DNA from: a virus
Taxonomy: Duplodnaviria; Heunggongvirae; Uroviricota; Caudoviricetes
Length of the DNA stretch: 11,313 nt
Virus record (IMG/VR): IMGVR_UViG_2703718815_000011
Location: 1-11,313 of that record
Strand: one strand, 5' to 3'
Shown one piece after another: positions 680 through 11,313 of the stretch. How positions within the stretch are numbered: the stretch's first letter is position 1; each line of letters begins with the position of its first letter. Position numbers and translations under genes: made by a program. The notes under the pieces are model-generated. The model was given only the letters and a program-made list of their open reading frames with translations. It made no database searches and was not told where the DNA came from.

Positions 680-1345
680 TCAAACAAAACCAGCCGCTTT
701 CCGGCGTTCATACTCCTGTTTCAGCAACTCAATTGGCGTTGGTCCCGACGGGCGTTTTGGTGCTGCCAGTTGTCGCCGGACTGGCGGAACGCTCAGGCCG
801 TTACTAACATGCTTTGCCCATTTCGTCAGCTGCCGTTCTGCAAGCCGTTTTAATTCCCCTTCGGTCATCTGGCGCTCAATCCCCTTTGAACGCATCTCGA
901 GGCAAATGTGATACAGCACAGGTTGAGTCCACGGGTATTTATCGCTTCCGTCGTATCGCCAGGACTCATTGCGCCAGCGTCGGTACTCCTCCATCACGGC
1001 ATCCACCGTCAGACCGAATGGATTTGCCCCACTCTCCGAAATCAGCGCCACAAACTCAGCCAGGTCCGGAGGCCATGTTTCACCTGCCCTGCAACGGTCC
1101 ATGCACTGGCGGCAGACCTGCCGGATTTGCTGCTCAGTCATCGCGCCAATCTGTGCAATCCATAGCTTCGAAGGTGCGGCCCCGTTCTTCTGGGTCCAGC
1201 GGTTCGAATAAACCTCCCCCATGAGTTCCCACAGCTTCCAGGCCGTTTCCGTCGCTGATAAATCCGTTTTCACGTTCCCACTGCTCACGTGCTGCCCGAA
1301 TTTCCTGAACTGCCCGTGATGCGGTGCCACCTGGCTTTGCTGCAT
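680..1345 (-). CDS. Lambda P-like replication protein (DnaB helicase loader family), 221 aa
   Basis: C-terminal two thirds align by eye with lambda P (e.g. [12 protein letters not shown]... / [19 protein letters not shown]... versus lambda FLPSPGQFVAWC... / YPWKSNAHYWLVTNLYQNMRA...). ATG at 1343-1345 is preceded on the minus strand by AGGGGGTG 4 nt upstream. Sits immediately downstream of the initiator-like gene, as O-P does in lambda. Confidence 0.8.
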
Positions 1346-2153
1346 GGTTCACCCCCTTGCTGACTGGTTTAACCTGCGCCCTGACGTGATTTACGTGACG
1401 GGCGAATTTCTGTTCCCACTGAACCTGCGTGAAAACTTTCCCCTCCGCTGCCCAGTAGTCCCGGAAGGCGGCAAGTTCAGCAGGTGTAAATTCCGGCTCT
1501 GGCGGAGCCGCTCCCCACAGTGCAGCCCGTCGTCGGAAATCCGGCGACGGATTCCAGCCGTCGGTCATCGGAAATTTTCCGATAGGTTCGCTCAGGCCTT
1601 CTAGGTAATCAGGTTCCGCTGCCTGCAACGGCAAACCATTCGACTCACTGGTCGGAGCACTCTCGCGCACGCGCGCGCTATGTGTGGGGTTTAATTCTTT
1701 TAGATCTGTATCTGTATCTTTATTAGTTGCTTTTGTGTTTGCGTCATGTTCAAACACCACACCAACATTTGTTTGAACACCTGTTAAATCTCTCTCTTGT
1801 TTTTTTTGAATATCTGCTTCCTTTCTGCTTCTTCTGGCTTGAACAGATGCTTTTCCGGCGGCTGATTTTTTGGTTAATTTTTCCCTGACTGATGCCAGAT
1901 CTTCCTCAATCCGAAGATGCACCCATTCATCGCCGTTATCGCAAAAAAACTCCCGCAAGGATGGTTCCACATCAGCCCATCGCTCGTTAGTCAGACGGGA
2001 AATTTTTGCCAGCCTGTTTTTGGGTATTGGCTTTCCTGTTTGCCAGTAATTGAACATCAGCAACAAATACGCACCGTGCTCCTCTGCTGACAAATGCATG
2101 GTGTCAGCCAGGTAATCAGCTATGTACAGTTGCATGTATGGTAATGCGGCCAT
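1134..2153 (-). CDS. YdaU-like replication initiation protein: N-terminal DUF1376 domain, K/E-rich linker, C-terminal DnaT/O-like region (339 aa from ATG at 2153; an upstream in-frame ATG at 2204 would give 356 aa)
   Basis: Long minus-strand ORF. DUF1376-like signature MAALPYMQLYIADYLADTMHLSAEEHGAYLLLMFNYW starts exactly at the ATG at 2151-2153, which has a weak GGGG SD; the ATG at 2202-2204 has no SD. C-terminal segment FTPAELAAFRDYWAAEGKVFTQVQWEQKFARHV resembles primosomal/O-like C-terminal domains. Start choice is uncertain. Confidence 0.7.
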   Translation of the reverse strand: MAALPYMQLYIADYLADTMHLSAEEHGAYLLLMFNYWQTGKPIPKNRLAKISRLTNERWADVEPSLREFFCDNGDEWVHLRIEEDLASVREKLTKKSAAGKASVQARRSRKEADIQKKQERDLTGVQTNVGVVFEHDANTKATNKDTDTDLKELNPTHSARVRESAPTSESNGLPLQAAEPDYLEGLSEPIGKFPMTDGWNPSPDFRRRAALWGAAPPEPEFTPAELAAFRDYWAAEGKVFTQVQWEQKFARHVNHVRAQVKPVSKGVNHAAKPGGTASRAVQEIRAAREQWERENGFISDGNGLEAVGTHGGGLFEPLDPEERGRTFEAMDCTDWRDD

Positions 2154-2216
2154 AATTGCCCCGTATGATGCTGCCCGGTGGCTTACAATAAGCACAAACA
2201 GCATGGAAACTTTTGC

Positions 2217-3005: not shown

Positions 3006-3467
3006 ATGAAAAAAACACGCGAAGTGATTGCAACTCCAGAAGCGAGCAAGAATTTAAAAGCCGCATGGAATGCAAGAAAAAAAGAGCTGAAGCTGACTCA
3101 AGAGCTGGCGGCTGAGTTGTTGGGATTCGAATCTCAAGGCACCGTTAGCCAGTATCTGAACGGCAAGATACCGATAAATACCGACGCTGCGCTAAAATTT
3201 GCGGCTCTGTTAAAGGTAAAACCAGAGGACATTCGAGAAGACCTTAAAGACTTAATGAATTATGTAAGATCATCAGATACTTATGATGATAGCTTTTCAG
3301 GCAAAGGATGGAGGCTGGTCAATGAAGAACAGGCAGAGTTACTTAACCTCTTCGAGATTCTACCTGCGTCAGAAAAAGCCAAACTCCTTAACCAGCTACG
3401 TGGACTAAACAAGCTCTACGAGGAAGCCTTCGAGAACATGCTGGCACTAAAGAAACGCAACCAGTAG
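3006..3467 (+). CDS. racR: CI-type prophage repressor, HTH_XRE N-terminal domain, no recognisable S24 (LexA-like) autopeptidase domain; RacR-like, 153 aa
   Basis: HTH LTQELAAELLGFESQGTVSQYLNGKIPINTDAALKFAALLKVKPEDI. No SD upstream of the ATG at 3006 and a -10-like element ends ~6 nt upstream, suggesting a leaderless mRNA as for lambda cI from PRM. Followed by a strong terminator. Confidence 0.75.
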   Translation: MKKTREVIATPEASKNLKAAWNARKKELKLTQELAAELLGFESQGTVSQYLNGKIPINTDAALKFAALLKVKPEDIREDLKDLMNYVRSSDTYDDSFSGKGWRLVNEEQAELLNLFEILPASEKAKLLNQLRGLNKLYEEAFENMLALKKRNQ

Positions 3468-5854: not shown

Positions 5855-8527
5855 ATGAGCACAAAACCACTCTTCCTGTTACGGAAAGCGAAAAAATCAT
5901 CCGGTGAACCTGACGTCGTCCTGTGGGCAAGCGACGATTTTGAATCGACCTGTGCCACTCTGGACTACCTGCTCGTTAAGTCAGGTAAAAAACTGAGCAG
6001 CTATTTTAAACCTGTTGCCACGAATTTTCCTGTCGTTAATGACCTTCCCCCTGAAGGTGAGATCGATTTTACCTGGAGTGAACGCTATCAACTCAGCAAA
6101 GACTCCATGACCTGGGAACTAAAACCGGGAGCAGCGCCAGACGACGTTCACCATCAGGAGAATGCACCGGAAACCGAAGAACCGGCGGGAGGCCAGGAAG
6201 AAAACACACGGGCAGACGCTCACGGGGATTGCCAGGATTGCGAAGTATCTGTATCTACTTTGCGGTTCACACAGCGTCTTCTGCACATTTTTACCTATGC
6301 GGCCGGGGATCGGAAATACCTGCATCATGCCACCCGAGAACAACGCGAACACATTACTGCTCTTGAGATGGATCAGGAAAACAGCTATGTCCAGAATCTG
6401 CTGTTGGCCATACGCGGCATGGCAGAACCGACAACTCTGGATAATGCCGCCCTGCTCCGCCTGACTGATGCAATTAAGGCAGTTTTCTCTATCACGAAAA
6501 AACATCAGCCCTATGAATTTAAGAATTTCATTTCAGCCTGGCTGGATACCGAACACATTGATCGCGGTCTTCTGACAAAAGAATGGCGAAGTGGGAATCG
6601 TGTTTCACGCATCACTCGCACGGCTTCCGGTGCTAATGCTGGCGGCGGGAACCTCACCGATCGCGGCGAAGGTTTCGTCCACGATCTGACGTCACTGGCG
6701 CGCGATGTAGCCACTGGCGTACTGGCCCGTTCAATGGACGTGGACATCTATAACCTTCATCCGGCACACGCTAAACGCATTGAGGAAATTATCGCTGAAA
6801 ATAAACCGCCCTTTTCTGTTTTCCGCGACAAATTCATCACCATGCCTGGCGGGCTGGATTATTCACGCGCCATCGTGGTTGCGTCCGTGAAAGAAGCACC
6901 AATTGGGATCGAGGTCATCCCCGCGCACGTCACTGAATATCTGAACAAAGTACTGACTGAAACCGATCATGCCAACCCTGATCCGGAAATCGTGGATATT
7001 GCCTGCGGTCGCTCCTCTGCCCCGATGCCGCAGCGTGTAACAGAAGAAGGAAAACAGGATGATGAAGAAAAACCGCAACCATCTGAAACAACGGCAGATG
7101 AACAGGGAGAGGCTGAAACAATGGAACCGGACGCAACTGAACATCATCAGGACACGCAGCCGCTGGATGCTCAGTCACAGGTAAATTCTGTTGATGCGAA
7201 ATATCAGGAACTGCGGGCAGAACTCCATGAAGCCCGGAAAAACATTCCATCAAAAAATCCTGTCGATGCCGATAAATTACTTGCTGCATCACGTGGTGAA
7301 TTTGTTGACGGAATTAGCGACCCGAACGATCCGAAATGGGTTAAGGGGATCCAGACTCGCGATTCTGTGTACCAGAACCAGCCAGAAACGGAACAAAACA
7401 CGCCAGAAACGGAAAAAACCAGCCCGGATGTGAAACAACCTGAGCCAGTAGTGCAACAGGAACCGGAAATAGTCTGCAATGCCTGCGGTCAGACTGGCGG
7501 GGATAACTGCCCTGACTGTGGTGCGGTGATGGGCGACGCAACATACCAGGAAACATTCGGTGAAGAGAATCAGGTTGAAGCTAAGGAAAATGATCCGGAG
7601 GAAATGGAAGGCGCTGAACATCCGCACAATGAGAATGCTGGCAGCGATCCGCATCGCGATTGCAGTGATGAAACTGGCGAAGTCGCAGATCCCGTAATCG
7701 TAGAAGACATAGAGCCAGGTATTTATTACGGAATTTCGAATGAGAATTACCACGCGGGTCCCGGTGTCAGTAAGTCTCAGCTCGACGACATTGCTGATAC
7801 TCCGGCACTGTATTTGTGGCGTAAAAATGCCCCCGTGGACACCACAAAGACAAAAACGCTCGATTTAGGAACCGCTTTCCACTGCCGGGTACTTGAACCG
7901 GAAGAATTCAGTAACCGCTTTATCGTAGCACCTGAATTTAACCGCCGTACAAACGCCGGAAAAGAAGAAGAGAAAGCGTTTCTGATGGAATGCGCAAGCA
8001 CAGGAAAAACGGTTATCACTGCGGAAGAAGGCCGGAAAATTGAACTCATGTATCAAAGCGTTATGGCTTTGCCGCTGGGGCAATGGCTTGTTGAAAGCGC
8101 CGGACACGCTGAATCATCAATTTACTGGGAAGATCCTGAAACAGGAATTTTGTGTCGGTGCCGTCCGGACAAAATTATCCCTGAATTTCACTGGATCATG
8201 GACGTGAAAACTACGGCAGATATTCAACGATTCAAAACCGCTTATTACGACTACCGCTATCACGTTCAGGATGCATTCTACAGTGACGGTTATGAAGCAC
8301 AGTTTGGAGTGCAGCCAACTTTCGTTTTTCTGGTTGCCAGCACAACTATTGAATGCGGACGTTATCCGGTTGAAATTTTCATGATGGGCGAAGAAGCAAA
8401 ACTGGCAGGTCAGCTGGAATATCACCGCAATCTGCGAACCCTGGCTGACTGCCTCAATACCGATGAATGGCCAGCTATTAAGACGTTATCACTGCCCCGC
8501 TGGGCTAAGGAATATGCAAATGACTAA
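5855..8527 (+). CDS. recE: Exodeoxyribonuclease VIII (RecE), 890 aa, with C-terminal PD-(D/E)xK exonuclease domain
   Basis: N-terminus [26 protein letters not shown]... and the C-terminal ~300 aa (...[24 protein letters not shown]...[36 protein letters not shown]...) match RecE as I recall it. Its stop overlaps the recT start, as in Rac. Confidence 0.95.
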
Positions 8528-9329: not shown

Positions 9330-9385
9330 TTCAGCCTGGCGGTGTAATGCACCGCCAACTTGAAATATTTTTTATGAGAAAAATT

Positions 9386-9580
9386 ATGAGATATGACAAT
9401 GTTAAACCATGTCCATTTTGTGGTTGTCCATCTGTTACGGTGAAAGCAATTTCAGGATATTACCGGGCAAAATGCAACGGATGCGAATCCCGAACCGGCT
9501 ATGGTGGAAGTGAAAAAGAAGCACTCGAACGATGGAATAAACGAACCACTGGAAATAATAATGGAGGTGTTCATGTATAA
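9386..9580 (+). CDS. ralR: RalR (restriction alleviation protein; reported DNase toxin of a type I toxin-antitoxin pair with the sRNA RalA), 64 aa
   Basis: MRYDNVKPCPFCGCPSVTVKAISGYYRAKCNGCESRTGYGGSEKEALERWNKRTTGNNNGGVHV, with Cys4 motif. Start chosen at 9386 to give the 64-aa product; in-frame ATGs also at 9374 and 9347. Confidence 0.85.
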   Translation: MRYDNVKPCPFCGCPSVTVKAISGYYRAKCNGCESRTGYGGSEKEALERWNKRTTGNNNGGVHV

Positions 9581-9761
9581 AATTACCGCCACTATTGAAA
9601 AGGAAGGTGGCACTCCTACTAACTGGACAAGGTACTCAAAAACAAAATTAACCAAATCAGAATGCGAAAAAATGCTCTCAGGTAAAAAAGAAGCTGGCGT
9701 TTCCAGAGAGCAGAAAGTAAAACTGATAAATTTTAATTGCGAGAAACTTCAGTCGTCGTGA
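9573..9761 (+). CDS. ydaC: YdaC-like small protein, 62 aa, function unknown
   Basis: MYKITATIEKEGGTPTNWTRYSKTKL... GGAGG SD 5 nt upstream of the ATG at 9573. Overlaps the ralR stop by 8 nt. Confidence 0.8.
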   Translation: MYKITATIEKEGGTPTNWTRYSKTKLTKSECEKMLSGKKEAGVSREQKVKLINFNCEKLQSS

Positions 9762-10077: not shown

Positions 10078-11313
10078 ATGTCTAAATTACCAACAGGTGT
10101 CGAGATTCGAGGTAAATACATTCGCATCTGGTTCATGTTTCGAGGAAAACGATGTCGGGAAACATTGAAAGGCTGGGAGGTTACTAACAGTAACATTAAA
10201 AAGGCCGGAAATTTAAGAGCGTTGATAGTTCATGAAATCAACTCCGGTGAATTTGAGTATTTAAGACGTTTTCCCCAGTCCAGTACTGGGGCAAAAATGG
10301 TGACAACGAGGGTCATAAAAACGTTCGGCGAGCTTTGTGATATCTGGACAAAAATTAAAGAAACAGAGTTAACAACAAACACAATGAAGAAAACGAAATC
10401 ACAATTAAAAACACTCAGGATAATAATTTGTGAGAGTACCCCGATATCACATATTCGTTATAGCGATATCTTAAACTACCGGAATGAACTGCTGCATGGA
10501 GAAACGCTTTACCTGGATAATCCAAGATCCAACAAAAAAGGAAGAACCGTGCGCACAGTTGATAACTATATTGCCCTGCTCTGTTCGTTGTTACGTTTTG
10601 CGTATCAGTCGGGATTTATATCAACCAAACCATTTGAAGGAGTAAAAAAATTACAGCGAAACAGAATAAAGCCTGACCCGTTATCTAAAACAGAATTCAA
10701 TGCATTAATGGAAAGTGAAAAAGGACAGAGCCAGAACTTGTGGAAATTTGCCGTTTACTCCGGGCTTCGTCACGGGGAACTGGCTGCTCTGGCGTGGGAG
10801 GATGTGGATTTCGAGAAGGGAATTGTGAATGTCAGAAGAAACCTGACGATACTTGATATGTTCGGTCCCCCAAAAACAAATGCGGGGATCCGGACGGTAA
10901 CACTACTACAGCCTGCTCTTGAAGCACTGAAGGAGCAATACAAACTGACCGGGCATCATCGCAAAAGCGAAATCACCTTTTATCATCGGGAGTACGGCAG
11001 AACCGAAAAGCAAAAACTGCATTTTGTTTTCATGCCCAGAGTGTGTAACGGAAAACAGAAACCTTATTACTCGGTAAGCAGTTTGGGTGCGAGATGGAAT
11101 GCAGCTGTAAAACGTGCTGGTATTCGCCGCCGTAATCCGTACCATACGCGACATACTTTTGCCTGCTGGCTGTTGACGGCAGGAGCGAACCCGGCATTTA
11201 TAGCCAGCCAGATGGGGCATGAAACTGCGCAGATGGTGTATGAAATTTACGGTATGTGGATTGATGACATGAACGACGAACAGGTAGCCATGTTGAATGC
11301 GCGGTTATCGTAG
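10078..11313 (+). CDS. intR: Tyrosine site-specific integrase (lambda Int family), 411 aa, Rac IntR-like
   Basis: N-terminus MSKLPTGVEIRGKYIRIWFMFRGKRCRETLKGW. Catalytic-domain motifs (...YSGLRHGELAALAWEDVDF..., ...HTRHTFACWLL..., ...MGHETAQMVYEIYGMW). Stop codon TAG is the last 3 bases of the window. Confidence 0.95.
   Translation: MSKLPTGVEIRGKYIRIWFMFRGKRCRETLKGWEVTNSNIKKAGNLRALIVHEINSGEFEYLRRFPQSSTGAKMVTTRVIKTFGELCDIWTKIKETELTTNTMKKTKSQLKTLRIIICESTPISHIRYSDILNYRNELLHGETLYLDNPRSNKKGRTVRTVDNYIALLCSLLRFAYQSGFISTKPFEGVKKLQRNRIKPDPLSKTEFNALMESEKGQSQNLWKFAVYSGLRHGELAALAWEDVDFEKGIVNVRRNLTILDMFGPPKTNAGIRTVTLLQPALEALKEQYKLTGHHRKSEITFYHREYGRTEKQKLHFVFMPRVCNGKQKPYYSVSSLGARWNAAVKRAGIRRRNPYHTRHTFACWLLTAGANPAFIASQMGHETAQMVYEIYGMWIDDMNDEQVAMLNARLS

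What the first reader, a model, noticed from the sequence alone, without database searches (positions are those of the whole stretch)
1134..1345. 212-nt out-of-frame overlap between the replication initiator-like and P-like genes
The P-like ORF has a strong SD (AGGGGGTG) at its first ATG (1343-1345), and its N-terminal ~70 residues align plausibly with the lambda P N-terminus. The initiator-like ORF on the same strand does not stop until 1134, so about 70 codons are read in two frames. An overlap this long is unusual for an O-P pair. It could be genuine overprinting (the acidic initiator C-tail ...[24 protein letters not shown]), a frameshift sequencing error or mutation extending the initiator, or a programmed frameshift.
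Basis: seen in the sequence. Interest (0 to 1): 0.45.

Follow-up and report, generated by a model that had tools for sequence, protein, structure and literature searches.

The report
Conserved initiator–helicase-loader gene overlap
In this Rac-type prophage, the last 70 codons of the replication initiator gene and the first 70 codons of the lambda-P-like helicase-loader gene are the same DNA read in two frames; the arrangement is real and conserved from E. coli prophages to Vibrio phages, and public annotation usually hides it by calling the loader too short.

Summary
On the minus strand the initiator ORF (2204..1134; DUF1376 + DnaT-like domain) and the lambda-P-like ORF (1345..680) share 212 nt, with P in the +1 frame. 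It is not an error. The same junction is found in 1253 of 5426 complete E. coli genomes. It recurs, at 212-224 nt, in at least eight other enterobacterial genera, and at 110-212 nt in Vibrio phages only ~30% identical.

The P start (ATG 1345) and a GGAGG-type ribosome site are conserved. Codons upstream of the two internal Mets that annotators use (M42, M69) are under purifying selection in the P frame (pN/pS 0.23). Both Mets lie inside the predicted folded N-terminal domain.

Constraint is partitioned. The first half encodes a conserved initiator helix over a disordered, variable P leader. The second half encodes the first helices of P domain II over a disordered initiator tail. That tail is still kept open and acidic through P's synonymous sites.

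Proposed function (inferred, not shown): the initiator's loader-docking end and the loader's initiator-facing end travel as one recombination-proof cassette.

It is a new variant of known kinds. Translation of both products is untested.

The parts
1134..2204 (-). Replication initiator ('replisome organizer') gene, 356 aa: DUF1376 N-domain, low-complexity linker, DnaT-like domain, short linker, C-terminal helix, acidic tail
   Evidence: ORF; Pfam DUF1376 + DnaT; PGAP annotates the same 1071-nt CDS in an identical E. coli locus
1893..2141 (-). DUF1376 domain (initiator res 22-104). It is swappable: relatives carry HTH_36, Lin1244_N, DUF6291 or nothing recognisable here
1374..1574 (-). DnaT-like ssDNA-binding domain (initiator res 211-277); confidently folded in the model (pLDDT about 90)
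1351..1358 (-). Shine-Dalgarno site for the P-like gene (AAGGGGGT), inside the initiator's disordered linker. It is GGAGG/GGGGG-type, 6-8 nt from the ATG, in nearly all enteric homologues (weakest in L096, GAGAGG)
680..1345 (-). Lambda-P/VdhL-type helicase-loader gene, full length 221 aa from ATG 1345-1343
   Evidence: ORF; Pfam PF06992; AF2 model and Foldseek best hits = lambda P chains of 9oa1 over 198-220 columns; profile hit to lambda P 8v9t
1134..1345 (-). The 212-nt dual-coding region (initiator res 287-356 plus stop; P res 1-71)
1251..1345 (-). Overlap half A. The initiator frame dominates: conserved helix [16 protein letters not shown], res 297-312 = 1269-1316, I-frame pN/pS 0.58. The P frame encodes a variable, disordered leader (res 1-32; pN/pS 0.88; pLDDT <50 for res 1-27)
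1137..1250 (-). Overlap half B. The P frame dominates: res 33-70, first three helices of the N-terminal domain, pN/pS 0.18. The initiator frame encodes a disordered acidic tail (res 319-356, net charge -7). Its sequence rides on P (pN/pS 1.94), but its openness and acidity are selected
1220..1222 (-). Internal Met M42 of P. PGAP uses it as the start in Citrobacter, Klebsiella and other genera (180-181 aa). It sits in the middle of predicted helix 25-46, has no conserved SD, and is absent in Vibrio phages D62, Baybae and VBM1
1139..1141 (-). Internal Met M69 of P (ATGACTGA overlapping the initiator stop). It is the annotated start in E. coli RefSeq and GenBank (153 aa). It lies between helices 60-67 and 71-86 of the N-domain and is Leu in many family members
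1134..1136 (-). Initiator stop TGA, made from the third base of P codon 70 (ACT) plus GA of codon 71. The T at that synonymous P position is invariant in the enteric homologues shown and in Vibrio phage D62

Best explanation
This is a genuine, selectively maintained same-strand +1 overlap. It joins the 3' end of a phage replication-initiator gene to the 5' end of its cognate lambda-P/VdhL-type DnaB helicase-loader gene.

Shown or strongly supported:
- Ribosomes would start the loader independently at ATG 1345, using an SD embedded in the initiator's disordered linker, 70 codons before the initiator stops.
- The two products share the DNA by alternating which frame carries the constraint. The initiator's C-terminal amphipathic helix is written over the loader's disordered N-terminal leader, the counterpart of lambda P domain I (the 'lasso').
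- The first helices of the loader's domain II are written over the initiator's disordered tail.
- That tail is nevertheless kept open and acidic by selection acting on the loader's synonymous sites.

Inferred mechanism:
- By analogy with lambda, the C-terminus of O binds P and the N-terminal part of P faces O. On that analogy the shared DNA encodes both sides of the initiator-loader contact.
- Recombination in mosaic phages can then swap origin-binding N-domains freely but cannot separate a loader from the initiator end that recruits it.
- The arrangement may also couple the expression of the two proteins.
For: Conservation of the architecture:
- The junction is found in 1253/5426 complete E. 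coli genomes, and 77/78 IMG/VR E. coli-type loci are intact.
- The overlap is 212/215 nt in Escherichia albertii, Salmonella, Citrobacter, Klebsiella, Enterobacter, Phytobacter, Pluralibacter and Kluyvera at 64-98% P identity, and 224 nt in another Salmonella prophage.
- It is 191-212 nt in three Vibrio-phage clades at about 30% identity.
- It is 110-137 nt in VBM1, Baybae, a Symbiopectobacterium prophage and one metagenomic virus.

P start:
- The ATG is conserved and is the first in frame, 0-16 codons after an in-frame stop in the enteric loci. A GGAGG-type SD is conserved.
- P res 33-41, upstream of M42, have pN/pS 0.23.
- The AF2 model puts M42 and M69 inside the folded N-domain.
- Vibrio phages D62, Baybae and VBM1 lack both Mets.
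- phiV10 and lambda P encode the equivalent N-terminal region with only 4-19 nt of overlap.

Both frames are constrained:
- pN/pS values show a partitioned pattern in enterics, repeated in two Vibrio clades.
- T at P third positions that would create initiator-frame stops: 0/134 in the overlap against 91/336 elsewhere in the same genes.
- G at P third positions before A-initial codons, which makes Asp/Glu in the initiator frame: 70% against 34%.
- The tail's net charge is -3 to -8. Expectation from synonymous resampling is about -1 in enterics and +3 to +5 in Vibrio phages. All 15 sequences shift the same way.

Cassette behaviour:
- The terminal helix plus P is joined to at least six different initiator architectures.
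- Nucleotide homology to PPompW and pPE4 phages starts in the initiator linker (about res 168-173), upstream of the DnaT domain.
- The same DUF1376 initiator paired with a DnaC-like loader is 285 aa with no helix, no tail and no overlap.

Lambda domain logic comes from PMC12661323 and PMC6022878.
Against: - There is no direct evidence of translation for either the long P form or the initiator tail: no proteomics, ribosome profiling or N-terminal sequencing was available.
- In half B the initiator frame has pN/pS 1.94, and P's synonymous diversity there is not significantly reduced (0.457 vs 0.517, p = 0.15). Residue-level constraint on the tail is therefore weak. Some lineages lack the tail entirely (110-137 nt class), so it is dispensable at least there.
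- The P leader evolves almost neutrally in its own frame (0.88), so its function is unproven here.
- The statistics treat related sequences as partly independent.
- The 'interface lock' and docking roles rest on analogy with lambda O/P and on module co-occurrence, not on any interaction test. No initiator-loader complex model could be built with these tools.
- PGAP and GenBank annotators prefer the shorter starts.
Confidence: 0.82

Rival explanations
1. Only a short overlap is real. The loader starts at M69 (8-nt ATGACTGA overlap, translational coupling) or at M42 (89-nt overlap), as in RefSeq and GenBank. The upstream P-frame ORF is an untranslated accident.
For: PGAP and GenBank-aa (E. coli) or 180-181-aa (other enterics) products. 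ATGACTGA is a classic termination-reinitiation geometry and is conserved in the E. coli/Klebsiella/Enterobacter group. M42 is nearly invariant in enterics. A minor short isoform cannot be excluded.
Against: P-frame codons 33-41 and 42-68 are under purifying selection (pN/pS 0.23, then 0.08-0.22). Both Mets lie inside the predicted helical N-domain. The equivalent region is part of phiV10 and lambda P. M69 is Leu in many members and in Vibrio phages. M42 is absent in D62, Baybae and VBM1. There is no conserved SD before M42, whereas the upstream ATG and SD are conserved.
Confidence: 0.07
2. The overlap is real at the DNA level, but the initiator's last ~38 residues are a functionless run-on. 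The initiator's working C-terminus is the helix, and the frame simply fails to hit a stop until 1134.
For: Initiator-frame pN/pS is 1.94 in that half, and the residues are largely dictated by P codons; for example W/R at res 353 follows ATT vs ATC of P Ile66. The tail is predicted disordered. Lineages exist whose initiator stops right after the helix (VBM1, Baybae, L112, L115).
Against: Chance of staying open given P's protein is 12-30% (enterics) and 1-4% (Vibrio) per lineage, yet the frame is open in all long-class lineages, with the stop within a few codons of the same place. Stop-creating T is avoided 0/37 in this half against 27% elsewhere. Excess G3 makes Asp/Glu. Net charge is far more negative than synonymous resampling predicts in 15/15 sequences, strongly so in AT-rich Vibrio phages.
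Confidence: 0.15
3. Programmed ribosomal frameshift: the P frame is entered from the initiator frame to make an initiator-loader fusion.
For: The same-strand, long out-of-frame overlap is the usual geometry for frameshifting. A G-rich SD-like element sits at the start of the overlap. Rare database proteins join the two genes.
Against: P is +1 (not -1) relative to the initiator, and a -1 shift lands in the third frame, which closes within 27 codons. There is no X XXY YYZ site in the window and none conserved among homologues. There is no in-frame stop or hungry-codon context for +1 shifting. P's own ATG is conserved in all lineages, which a shift-only mechanism would not require. No conserved RNA structure was found. 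Of the joined database proteins, P0082 is an in-frame deletion and P0107 looks like a decayed copy.
Confidence: 0.03
4. Sequencing or assembly error, or a recent frameshift mutation, artificially extends the initiator.
For: Long overlaps in prokaryotic annotation are often artefacts (general knowledge).
Against: The junction recurs without indels in related phages, is found in 1253 complete E. coli genomes and 77/78 viral contigs, and the same architecture occurs in other genera and in Vibrio phages. True decay looks different: the Leclercia locus L101 has a deletion that fuses the frames.
Confidence: 0.01

Closest known systems
Bacteriophage lambda O-P replication module (initiator followed by DnaB helicase loader)
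   Same: Same gene order and logic. The loader is a PF06992 member whose model matches full-length lambda P. It has the same four-part layout seen in lambda P: disordered N-terminal 'lasso', domain II, domain III, C-terminal element (PMC12661323). In lambda the O C-terminus binds P and the P N-terminal part faces O (PMC6022878).
   Different: Lambda O and P overlap by 4 nt; here the overlap is 212 nt. The initiator is unrelated to O (DUF1376 + DnaT-like domain). No iteron-type repeats were found inside the initiator gene. The loader is only about 17-18% identical to lambda P in the structural alignment.
phiV10/epsilon15-type DnaT-like initiator + P pair
   Same: HTH_36 + DnaT-domain initiator followed by a P-family loader that aligns with residues 18-221 of this P.
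   Different: The overlap is only 4-19 nt. That initiator ends shortly after the DnaT domain (…EAWEDFL), without the conserved helix or long acidic tail.
VdhL1/VdhL2, virus-derived helicase loaders of Vibrionaceae (PMC11087808)
   Same: The Vibrio-phage relatives of this P found here are linked to that family. Baybae's P-like protein is 42% identical to a protein of phage VBM1, the phage named in the paper as carrying a VdhL1 homologue. [quoted passage not shown]
   Different: The paper's main text contains no occurrence of 'overlap'. VBM1 and Baybae have the short (110-113 nt) overlap class. Whether chromosomal vdhL1 overlaps its conserved upstream gene OG4911 was not testable here.
Long same-strand out-of-frame overlapping gene pairs in phages and viruses (e.g. 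phiX174 A/B/K, lambda Rz/Rz1; from general knowledge)
   Same: Two proteins come from one DNA stretch in different frames. Structured segments of one product lie over disordered segments of the other, and synonymous sites of one frame are constrained by the other.
   Different: Here it is a terminal overlap between two adjacent, presumably interacting replication proteins rather than a gene nested within another. Constraint switches frame half-way through.
E. coli K-12 Rac YdaU-YdaV type module (DUF1376 initiator + DnaC-like loader)
   Same: Near-identical DUF1376 N-terminal half and the same prophage neighbourhood: repressor, YdaS, YdaT, initiator, loader, DUF1627.
   Different: That initiator (285 aa in phage vB_EcoS-683R6) has a different C-terminal half, no terminal helix or tail, and does not overlap its DnaC-like loader.

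Membership tests
Lambda P helicase-loader family (PF06992) | Sequence match to the family profile above the curated threshold | tested here: met
   60.8 bits vs cut-off 26, residues 56-188 = profile 28-161; a profile of 33 homologues hits lambda P chains 8v9t/8v9s, E 4e-6
Lambda P helicase-loader family (PF06992) | Fold and domain layout of lambda P (disordered N-lasso, domains II and III, C-terminal element) | tested here: met
   AF2 model: residues 1-27 disordered, then helical domains. Foldseek top hits are lambda P chains of 9oa1 over 198-220 columns, probability 1.00, TM 0.42-0.50. Layout as described in PMC12661323
Lambda P helicase-loader family (PF06992) | Binds and loads host DnaB; recruited by its cognate initiator | not testable with these tools
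   No biochemical data. Only the position directly downstream of an initiator gene is seen
DnaT-like / 'replisome organizer' phage initiators | DnaT DNA-binding domain (PF17948) in the C-terminal half | tested here: met
   65.6 bits vs 25, residues 211-277; confident fold; NCBI names for homologues
Lambda-O-type initiators | Origin iterons inside the initiator gene | tested here: not met
   No direct or inverted repeats of 12 nt or more in 1100-2700. Diverged or shorter iterons could be missed
Genuine dual-coding (overlapping) gene pair | Both frames stay open across diverged homologues, more than the other frame's protein allows by chance | tested here: met
Genuine dual-coding (overlapping) gene pair | Independent, conserved translation start signals for the downstream gene inside the upstream gene | tested here: met
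   ATG conserved in every intact homologue examined; GGAGG-type SD conserved in nearly all enteric homologues and weak or absent in some Vibrio phages
Genuine dual-coding (overlapping) gene pair | Selection on the protein products of both frames within the overlap | tested here: met
   Partitioned: initiator helix (pN/pS 0.58) over the P leader (0.88); P domain (0.18) over the initiator tail (1.94). The tail shows selected openness and acidity rather than residue conservation
Genuine dual-coding (overlapping) gene pair | Both products actually translated | not testable with these tools
   No proteomic or ribosome-profiling data accessible
Programmed ribosomal frameshift site | Conserved slippery sequence, with stimulator, leading into the second frame | tested here: not met
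   No X XXY YYZ in the window and none conserved; P is +1, not -1; no conserved RNA structure

The most novel reading that the evidence does not exclude
The overlap is an 'interface lock'. The initiator's loader-docking peptide (terminal helix plus acidic tail) and the loader's initiator-facing N-terminus (lasso plus first helices of domain II) are deliberately encoded by the same nucleotides. Recombination can then shuffle origin-recognition domains, but a loader is never separated from the initiator end that recruits it. On this reading the principle holds across the whole P/VdhL1 family, possibly including the domesticated, essential vdhL1 loaders of Vibrionaceae and their conserved upstream gene. 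The acidic tail would act as a regulated hand-off or DNA-mimic element during DnaB loading.
Probability: 0.3. Interest if true: 0.7.

Novelty: new variant of a known kind. Interest (0 to 1): 0.55.

Why it matters
First, it corrects annotation. In more than a thousand complete E. coli genomes, and in many other enterobacteria, the 'replication protein P' CDS is called 41 or 68 residues too short. That removes the leader and up to half of the N-terminal domain, the part thought to talk to the initiator.

Second, it gives a clean, deeply conserved example of a long terminal overlap between two presumably interacting proteins. Constraint switches frame half-way, and the 'passenger' frame is still shaped in openness and charge through the other gene's synonymous sites. 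That makes it useful for testing ideas on how overlaps evolve and why they persist.

Third, it points to a small, portable initiator element (helix plus or minus acidic tail) that always accompanies this loader family, whatever the origin-binding domain. This is a concrete, testable candidate for the loader-recruitment motif in a family that includes the Vibrio VdhL loaders.

It does not reveal a new kind of machinery.

Tried and rejected
- RNA-level explanations. RNAalifold on 12 homologues around the P start gave no consensus pairs. The single-sequence fold was not better than shuffles (z -0.75). Rfam found nothing in the region; its only hit in the window is RalA at 9579-9757.
- Frameshift site scan: nothing conserved.
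- Iterons in the initiator gene: none found.
- Residue-level constraint on the initiator tail, tested as reduced synonymous diversity of P in half B: only a non-significant reduction. The composition tests were informative instead.
- Wider sampling:
  - The first viral-contig scan returned only near-identical E. coli loci.
  - An alignment spanning all clades was too diverse to search with.
  - The Vibrio-clade scan gave one new locus.
  - The protein search with the initiator C-terminus returned mostly partial E. coli entries.
  - The search with Baybae P gave three close hits, so chromosomal vdhL1 loci could not be reached.
- P0116 turned out to be an orphan remnant with no initiator.
- Apparent initiator-loader fusions in the database are not natural fusions: P0082 is an in-frame deletion and P0107 looks like a decayed copy.
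- Literature searches found no description of this overlap. The library covers only open-access papers and bioRxiv preprints.
Full report
**1. What is in the sequence**

The window is the early-left arm of a Rac-type prophage. It carries:
- an integrase at 10078-11313 (+);
- Lar/RalR with the RalA sRNA, then RecT and RecE/ExoVIII;
- a repressor at 3006-3467 (+);
- on the minus strand, YdaS-like (2904-2650), YdaT-like (2639-2217), the initiator (2204-1134), the P-like gene (1345-680) and a DUF1627 gene (645-1).

The initiator ORF is 356 aa, with DUF1376 at residues 22-104 and a DnaT DNA-binding domain at 211-277. The second ORF is 221 aa and matches Phage_lambda_P. The two share 1134-1345, which is 212 nt. 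P is read one base downstream of the initiator frame, so P codon position 3 is initiator position 1. AAGGGGGT (1358-1351) precedes ATG 1345 by six bases.

**2. Not an error, and not private to this genome**

- Three related phages (Rac-SA53, PPompW-type Stx phage companions, pPE4) align without indels through the overlap.
- The junction occurs in 1253 of 5426 complete E. coli genomes, with up to six copies per genome.
- 77 of 78 IMG/VR E. coli-type loci have the ATG, both open frames and the stop in the same place.
- One genome per species gave 14 loci: Escherichia albertii, Salmonella, Citrobacter, Klebsiella, Enterobacter, Phytobacter, Pluralibacter, Kluyvera and Leclercia. Thirteen have overlaps of 212 or 215 nt at 64-98% P identity. 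The Leclercia copy is visibly decayed by a deletion.
- A second Salmonella lineage has 224 nt.
- Vibrio phages about 30% identical keep the architecture: D62 212 nt, 1.214.O 191, D59 200, 1.211.A and 1.184.A 212, 1.183.O 197.
- A short class also exists, in which the initiator stops right after its terminal helix: VBM1 110 nt, Baybae 113 nt, a Symbiopectobacterium prophage 113 nt and one metagenomic virus 137 nt.
- By contrast, lambda O/P overlap by 4 nt and phiV10's DnaT-type initiator/P pair by 4-19 nt.

**3. Where the loader starts**

Public annotation is inconsistent. PGAP and GenBank aa from M69 in E. coli and 180-181 aa from M42 in other enterics. Forms of 221-223 aa also exist in nr. 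The evidence favours ATG 1345:
- It is the first in-frame ATG, 0-16 codons after a stop in the enteric loci, and it is conserved in every intact homologue examined.
- It is preceded by GGAGG/GGGGG at 6-8 nt in nearly all enteric homologues, although the surrounding initiator-frame residues vary.
- P-frame codons upstream of the internal Mets are under purifying selection. Residues 33-41 have pN/pS 0.23 at pS 0.67. Residues 42-55 have 0.08, and 56-68 have 0.22.
- The AlphaFold model built on 33 homologues has residues 1-27 disordered, then helices 25-46, 48-54, 60-67, 71-86 and 95-105. M42 is therefore mid-helix and M69 mid-domain.
- Vibrio phages D62, Baybae and VBM1 have no Met at either position, and many enterobacterial members have Leu at the M69 position.
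- No conserved SD precedes M42.
- The model's best PDB matches are the lambda P chains of the DnaB-lambda P complex 9oa1, aligned over essentially the full length. Lambda P itself has a disordered domain I (1-29) followed by domain II (30-119) (PMC12661323).

A minor short isoform made by reinitiation at ATGACTGA cannot be excluded in the E. coli group, but it is not a family-wide feature.

**4. How two proteins share the DNA**

Twelve non-redundant enteric loci were aligned by codon in each frame.

| Segment | Frame | pN/pS | Note |
|---|---|---|---|
| P 1-32 | P | 0.88 | most variable base is P position 2 = initiator position 3 |
| P 33-70 | P | 0.18 | |
| P 71-221 (non-overlapping) | P | 0.19 | |
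| Initiator DnaT region | initiator | 0.38 | |
| Initiator 287-318 | initiator | 0.58 | core TASRAVQ(E/Q)I has 0.79 amino-acid identity at normal synonymous diversity |
| Initiator 319-356 | initiator | 1.94 | |

So half A (1251-1345) is governed by the initiator and half B (1137-1250) by the loader. The same switch is seen in two Vibrio-phage clades.

The initiator model agrees:
- a confident DnaT-like domain;
- a disordered linker, where the SD and ATG sit;
- a helix at residues 297-312;
- a disordered tail.

Each product's structured piece thus lies over the other's disordered piece.

**5. The 'passenger' tail is still selected**

- *Openness.* Stops in the initiator frame arise when a P codon ends in T before AA/AG/GA. 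Such T's are 0/134 in the overlap (0/37 in half B) against 91/336 in the rest of the same genes. Resampling P's synonymous codons keeps the initiator frame open through half B in only 12-30% of trials for enterics and 1-4% for Vibrio phages. Across the whole overlap the figure is 0.5-12%.
- *Stop position.* The base that creates the stop, the third position of P codon 70, is T in the enteric homologues shown and in Vibrio phage D62.
- *Acidity.* P codons that precede A-initial codons end in G 70% of the time in half B against 34% elsewhere. This holds in all 19 sequences. That choice writes Asp/Glu in the initiator frame.
- *Net charge.* Observed tail net charge is -3 to -8. Resampling conditional on an open frame predicts about -1 in enterics and +3 to +5 in AT-rich Vibrio phages. 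All 15 tested sequences deviate in the acidic direction, and all five Vibrio sequences have p < 0.01.
- *Limits.* Residue-level constraint is weak. P's synonymous diversity in half B is 0.457 against 0.517 elsewhere, p = 0.15. These tests do not fully correct for shared ancestry, but the effect recurs in clades saturated at synonymous sites.

**6. Cassette behaviour**

The terminal helix and the overlapping loader are attached to at least six different initiator architectures:
- DUF1376 + DnaT (this window);
- HTH_36 + DnaT (PPompW);
- an unassigned N-domain + DnaT (Chris1);
- HTH_36/DnaD_N without a DnaT domain (D62, Baybae);
- DUF6291 (1.214.O);
- Lin1244_N (VBM1);
- DUF1376 with a YdaU-type C-domain (Symbiopectobacterium).

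Among E. coli phages, nucleotide homology to this window begins in the initiator linker (about residue 168-173), upstream of the DnaT-domain segment, and runs through P. The near-identical DUF1376 N-half paired with a DnaC-like loader belongs to a 285-aa initiator with no helix, no tail and no overlap. Conversely, phi80/HK639-type loaders share only residues 93-221 with this P. The helix therefore travels with the loader's N-terminal part.

**7. Mechanism**

*Shown or strongly supported:*
- a real, conserved +1 overlap;
- independent initiation signals for the loader inside the initiator gene;
- partitioned constraint;
- selection for an open, acidic initiator tail.

*Inferred:* in lambda, the O C-terminal region binds P and the P N-terminal part faces O (PMC6022878). 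The disordered domain I copies of lambda P are proposed to contact O-ori (PMC12661323). In VdhL1, deleting the variable N-terminal region abolishes loading (PMC11087808). By analogy, the shared DNA encodes both sides of the initiator-loader contact, which would make the pair inseparable by recombination.

Expression coupling is possible, because ribosomes translating the initiator traverse the loader's SD and ATG. No conserved RNA structure supports a gated mechanism.

**8. Link to VdhL**

Baybae's P-like protein is 42% identical (E 1e-36) to a protein of Vibrio phage VBM1. PMC11087808 names VBM1 as carrying a VdhL1 homologue. GenBank annotates that VBM1 gene as overlapping its upstream gene by 110 nt. 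The paper's main text contains no occurrence of 'overlap'.

**9. Novelty and verdict**

Searches of the open-access library found no description of this overlap. Some database entries implicitly contain it: the 221-aa nr proteins and the VBM1, Baybae and D59 annotations. Long out-of-frame overlaps in phages, and O-P-type replication modules, are both known kinds. This is a new, deeply conserved variant that joins them, and it implies a widespread start-codon mis-annotation.

- Confidence that the overlap is genuine with the loader starting at 1345: about 0.8.
- Confidence in the 'interface lock' function: about 0.3.
- Interest: 0.55.

Noticed in passing
window 9579-9757 (-) and 9347-9580 (+): Rfam RalA sRNA (210 bits, gathering score 170), the antitoxin of the RalR type I toxin-antitoxin pair, lies next to a Lar restriction-alleviation ORF. 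This confirms the Rac-type identity of the prophage.
   Followed up: partly
window 680-1345 (-) and homologous RefSeq/GenBank loci (L001, L003, L004): Start-codon calls for 'replication protein P' are inconsistent across databases: 153 aa in E. coli, 180-181 aa in Citrobacter, Klebsiella, Kluyvera and others, 140 aa in PPompW phages, and 221-223 aa in some nr entries. The short forms cut the predicted N-terminal domain.
   Followed up: yes
window 8463-8527 (+): The RecT ORF measured from its first ATG (8463) overlaps the end of the RecE/ExoVIII ORF (stop at 8527) by 65 nt in another frame. RecT's true start may be further downstream; this was not examined.
   Followed up: no
window 2151-2204 (-): The initiator ORF begins at ATG 2204 (as PGAP calls it), but a second ATG at 2153 (MAALPYMQLY…) lies just before the DUF1376 domain. 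At least one database protein (P0082) starts there, and the Symbiopectobacterium homologue starts at the equivalent Met. The first 17 residues may not be translated.
   Followed up: no
L003 (PP818812.1, 'Actinobacillus phage vB_Apl-pPE4'): A phage recorded as infecting Actinobacillus pleuropneumoniae is 94% identical at nucleotide level to this E. coli prophage replication region. This is unexpected for that host and may reflect an E. coli-derived phage or a host mislabel.
   Followed up: no
L101 (Leclercia adecarboxylata LR590464.1) 2438-2689: A decayed copy: a deletion inside the overlap fuses the P frame into the initiator tail frame (…WQVMGGNILEPVDAEEWGRTFGALDSPDRFDD). It shows what real frameshift damage looks like at this junction.
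   Followed up: partly
L005 (Citrobacter phage Chris1) 2790-4660: An arsenic-resistance cluster (arsR, arsD, arsA) sits directly downstream of the loader gene in a temperate phage genome.
   Followed up: no
L006 and related Vibrio phage records (e.g. MG592575.1, OZ195768.1): In several Vibrio phage records the P/VdhL-like gene is annotated only as a truncated 108-aa fragment, or not at all, apparently because gene callers avoid the long overlap.
   Followed up: partly
window 1134-2204 (-): No iteron-like direct or inverted repeats of 12 nt or more were found in or around the initiator gene, unlike lambda O, so the origin of this module remains unlocated.
   Followed up: partly
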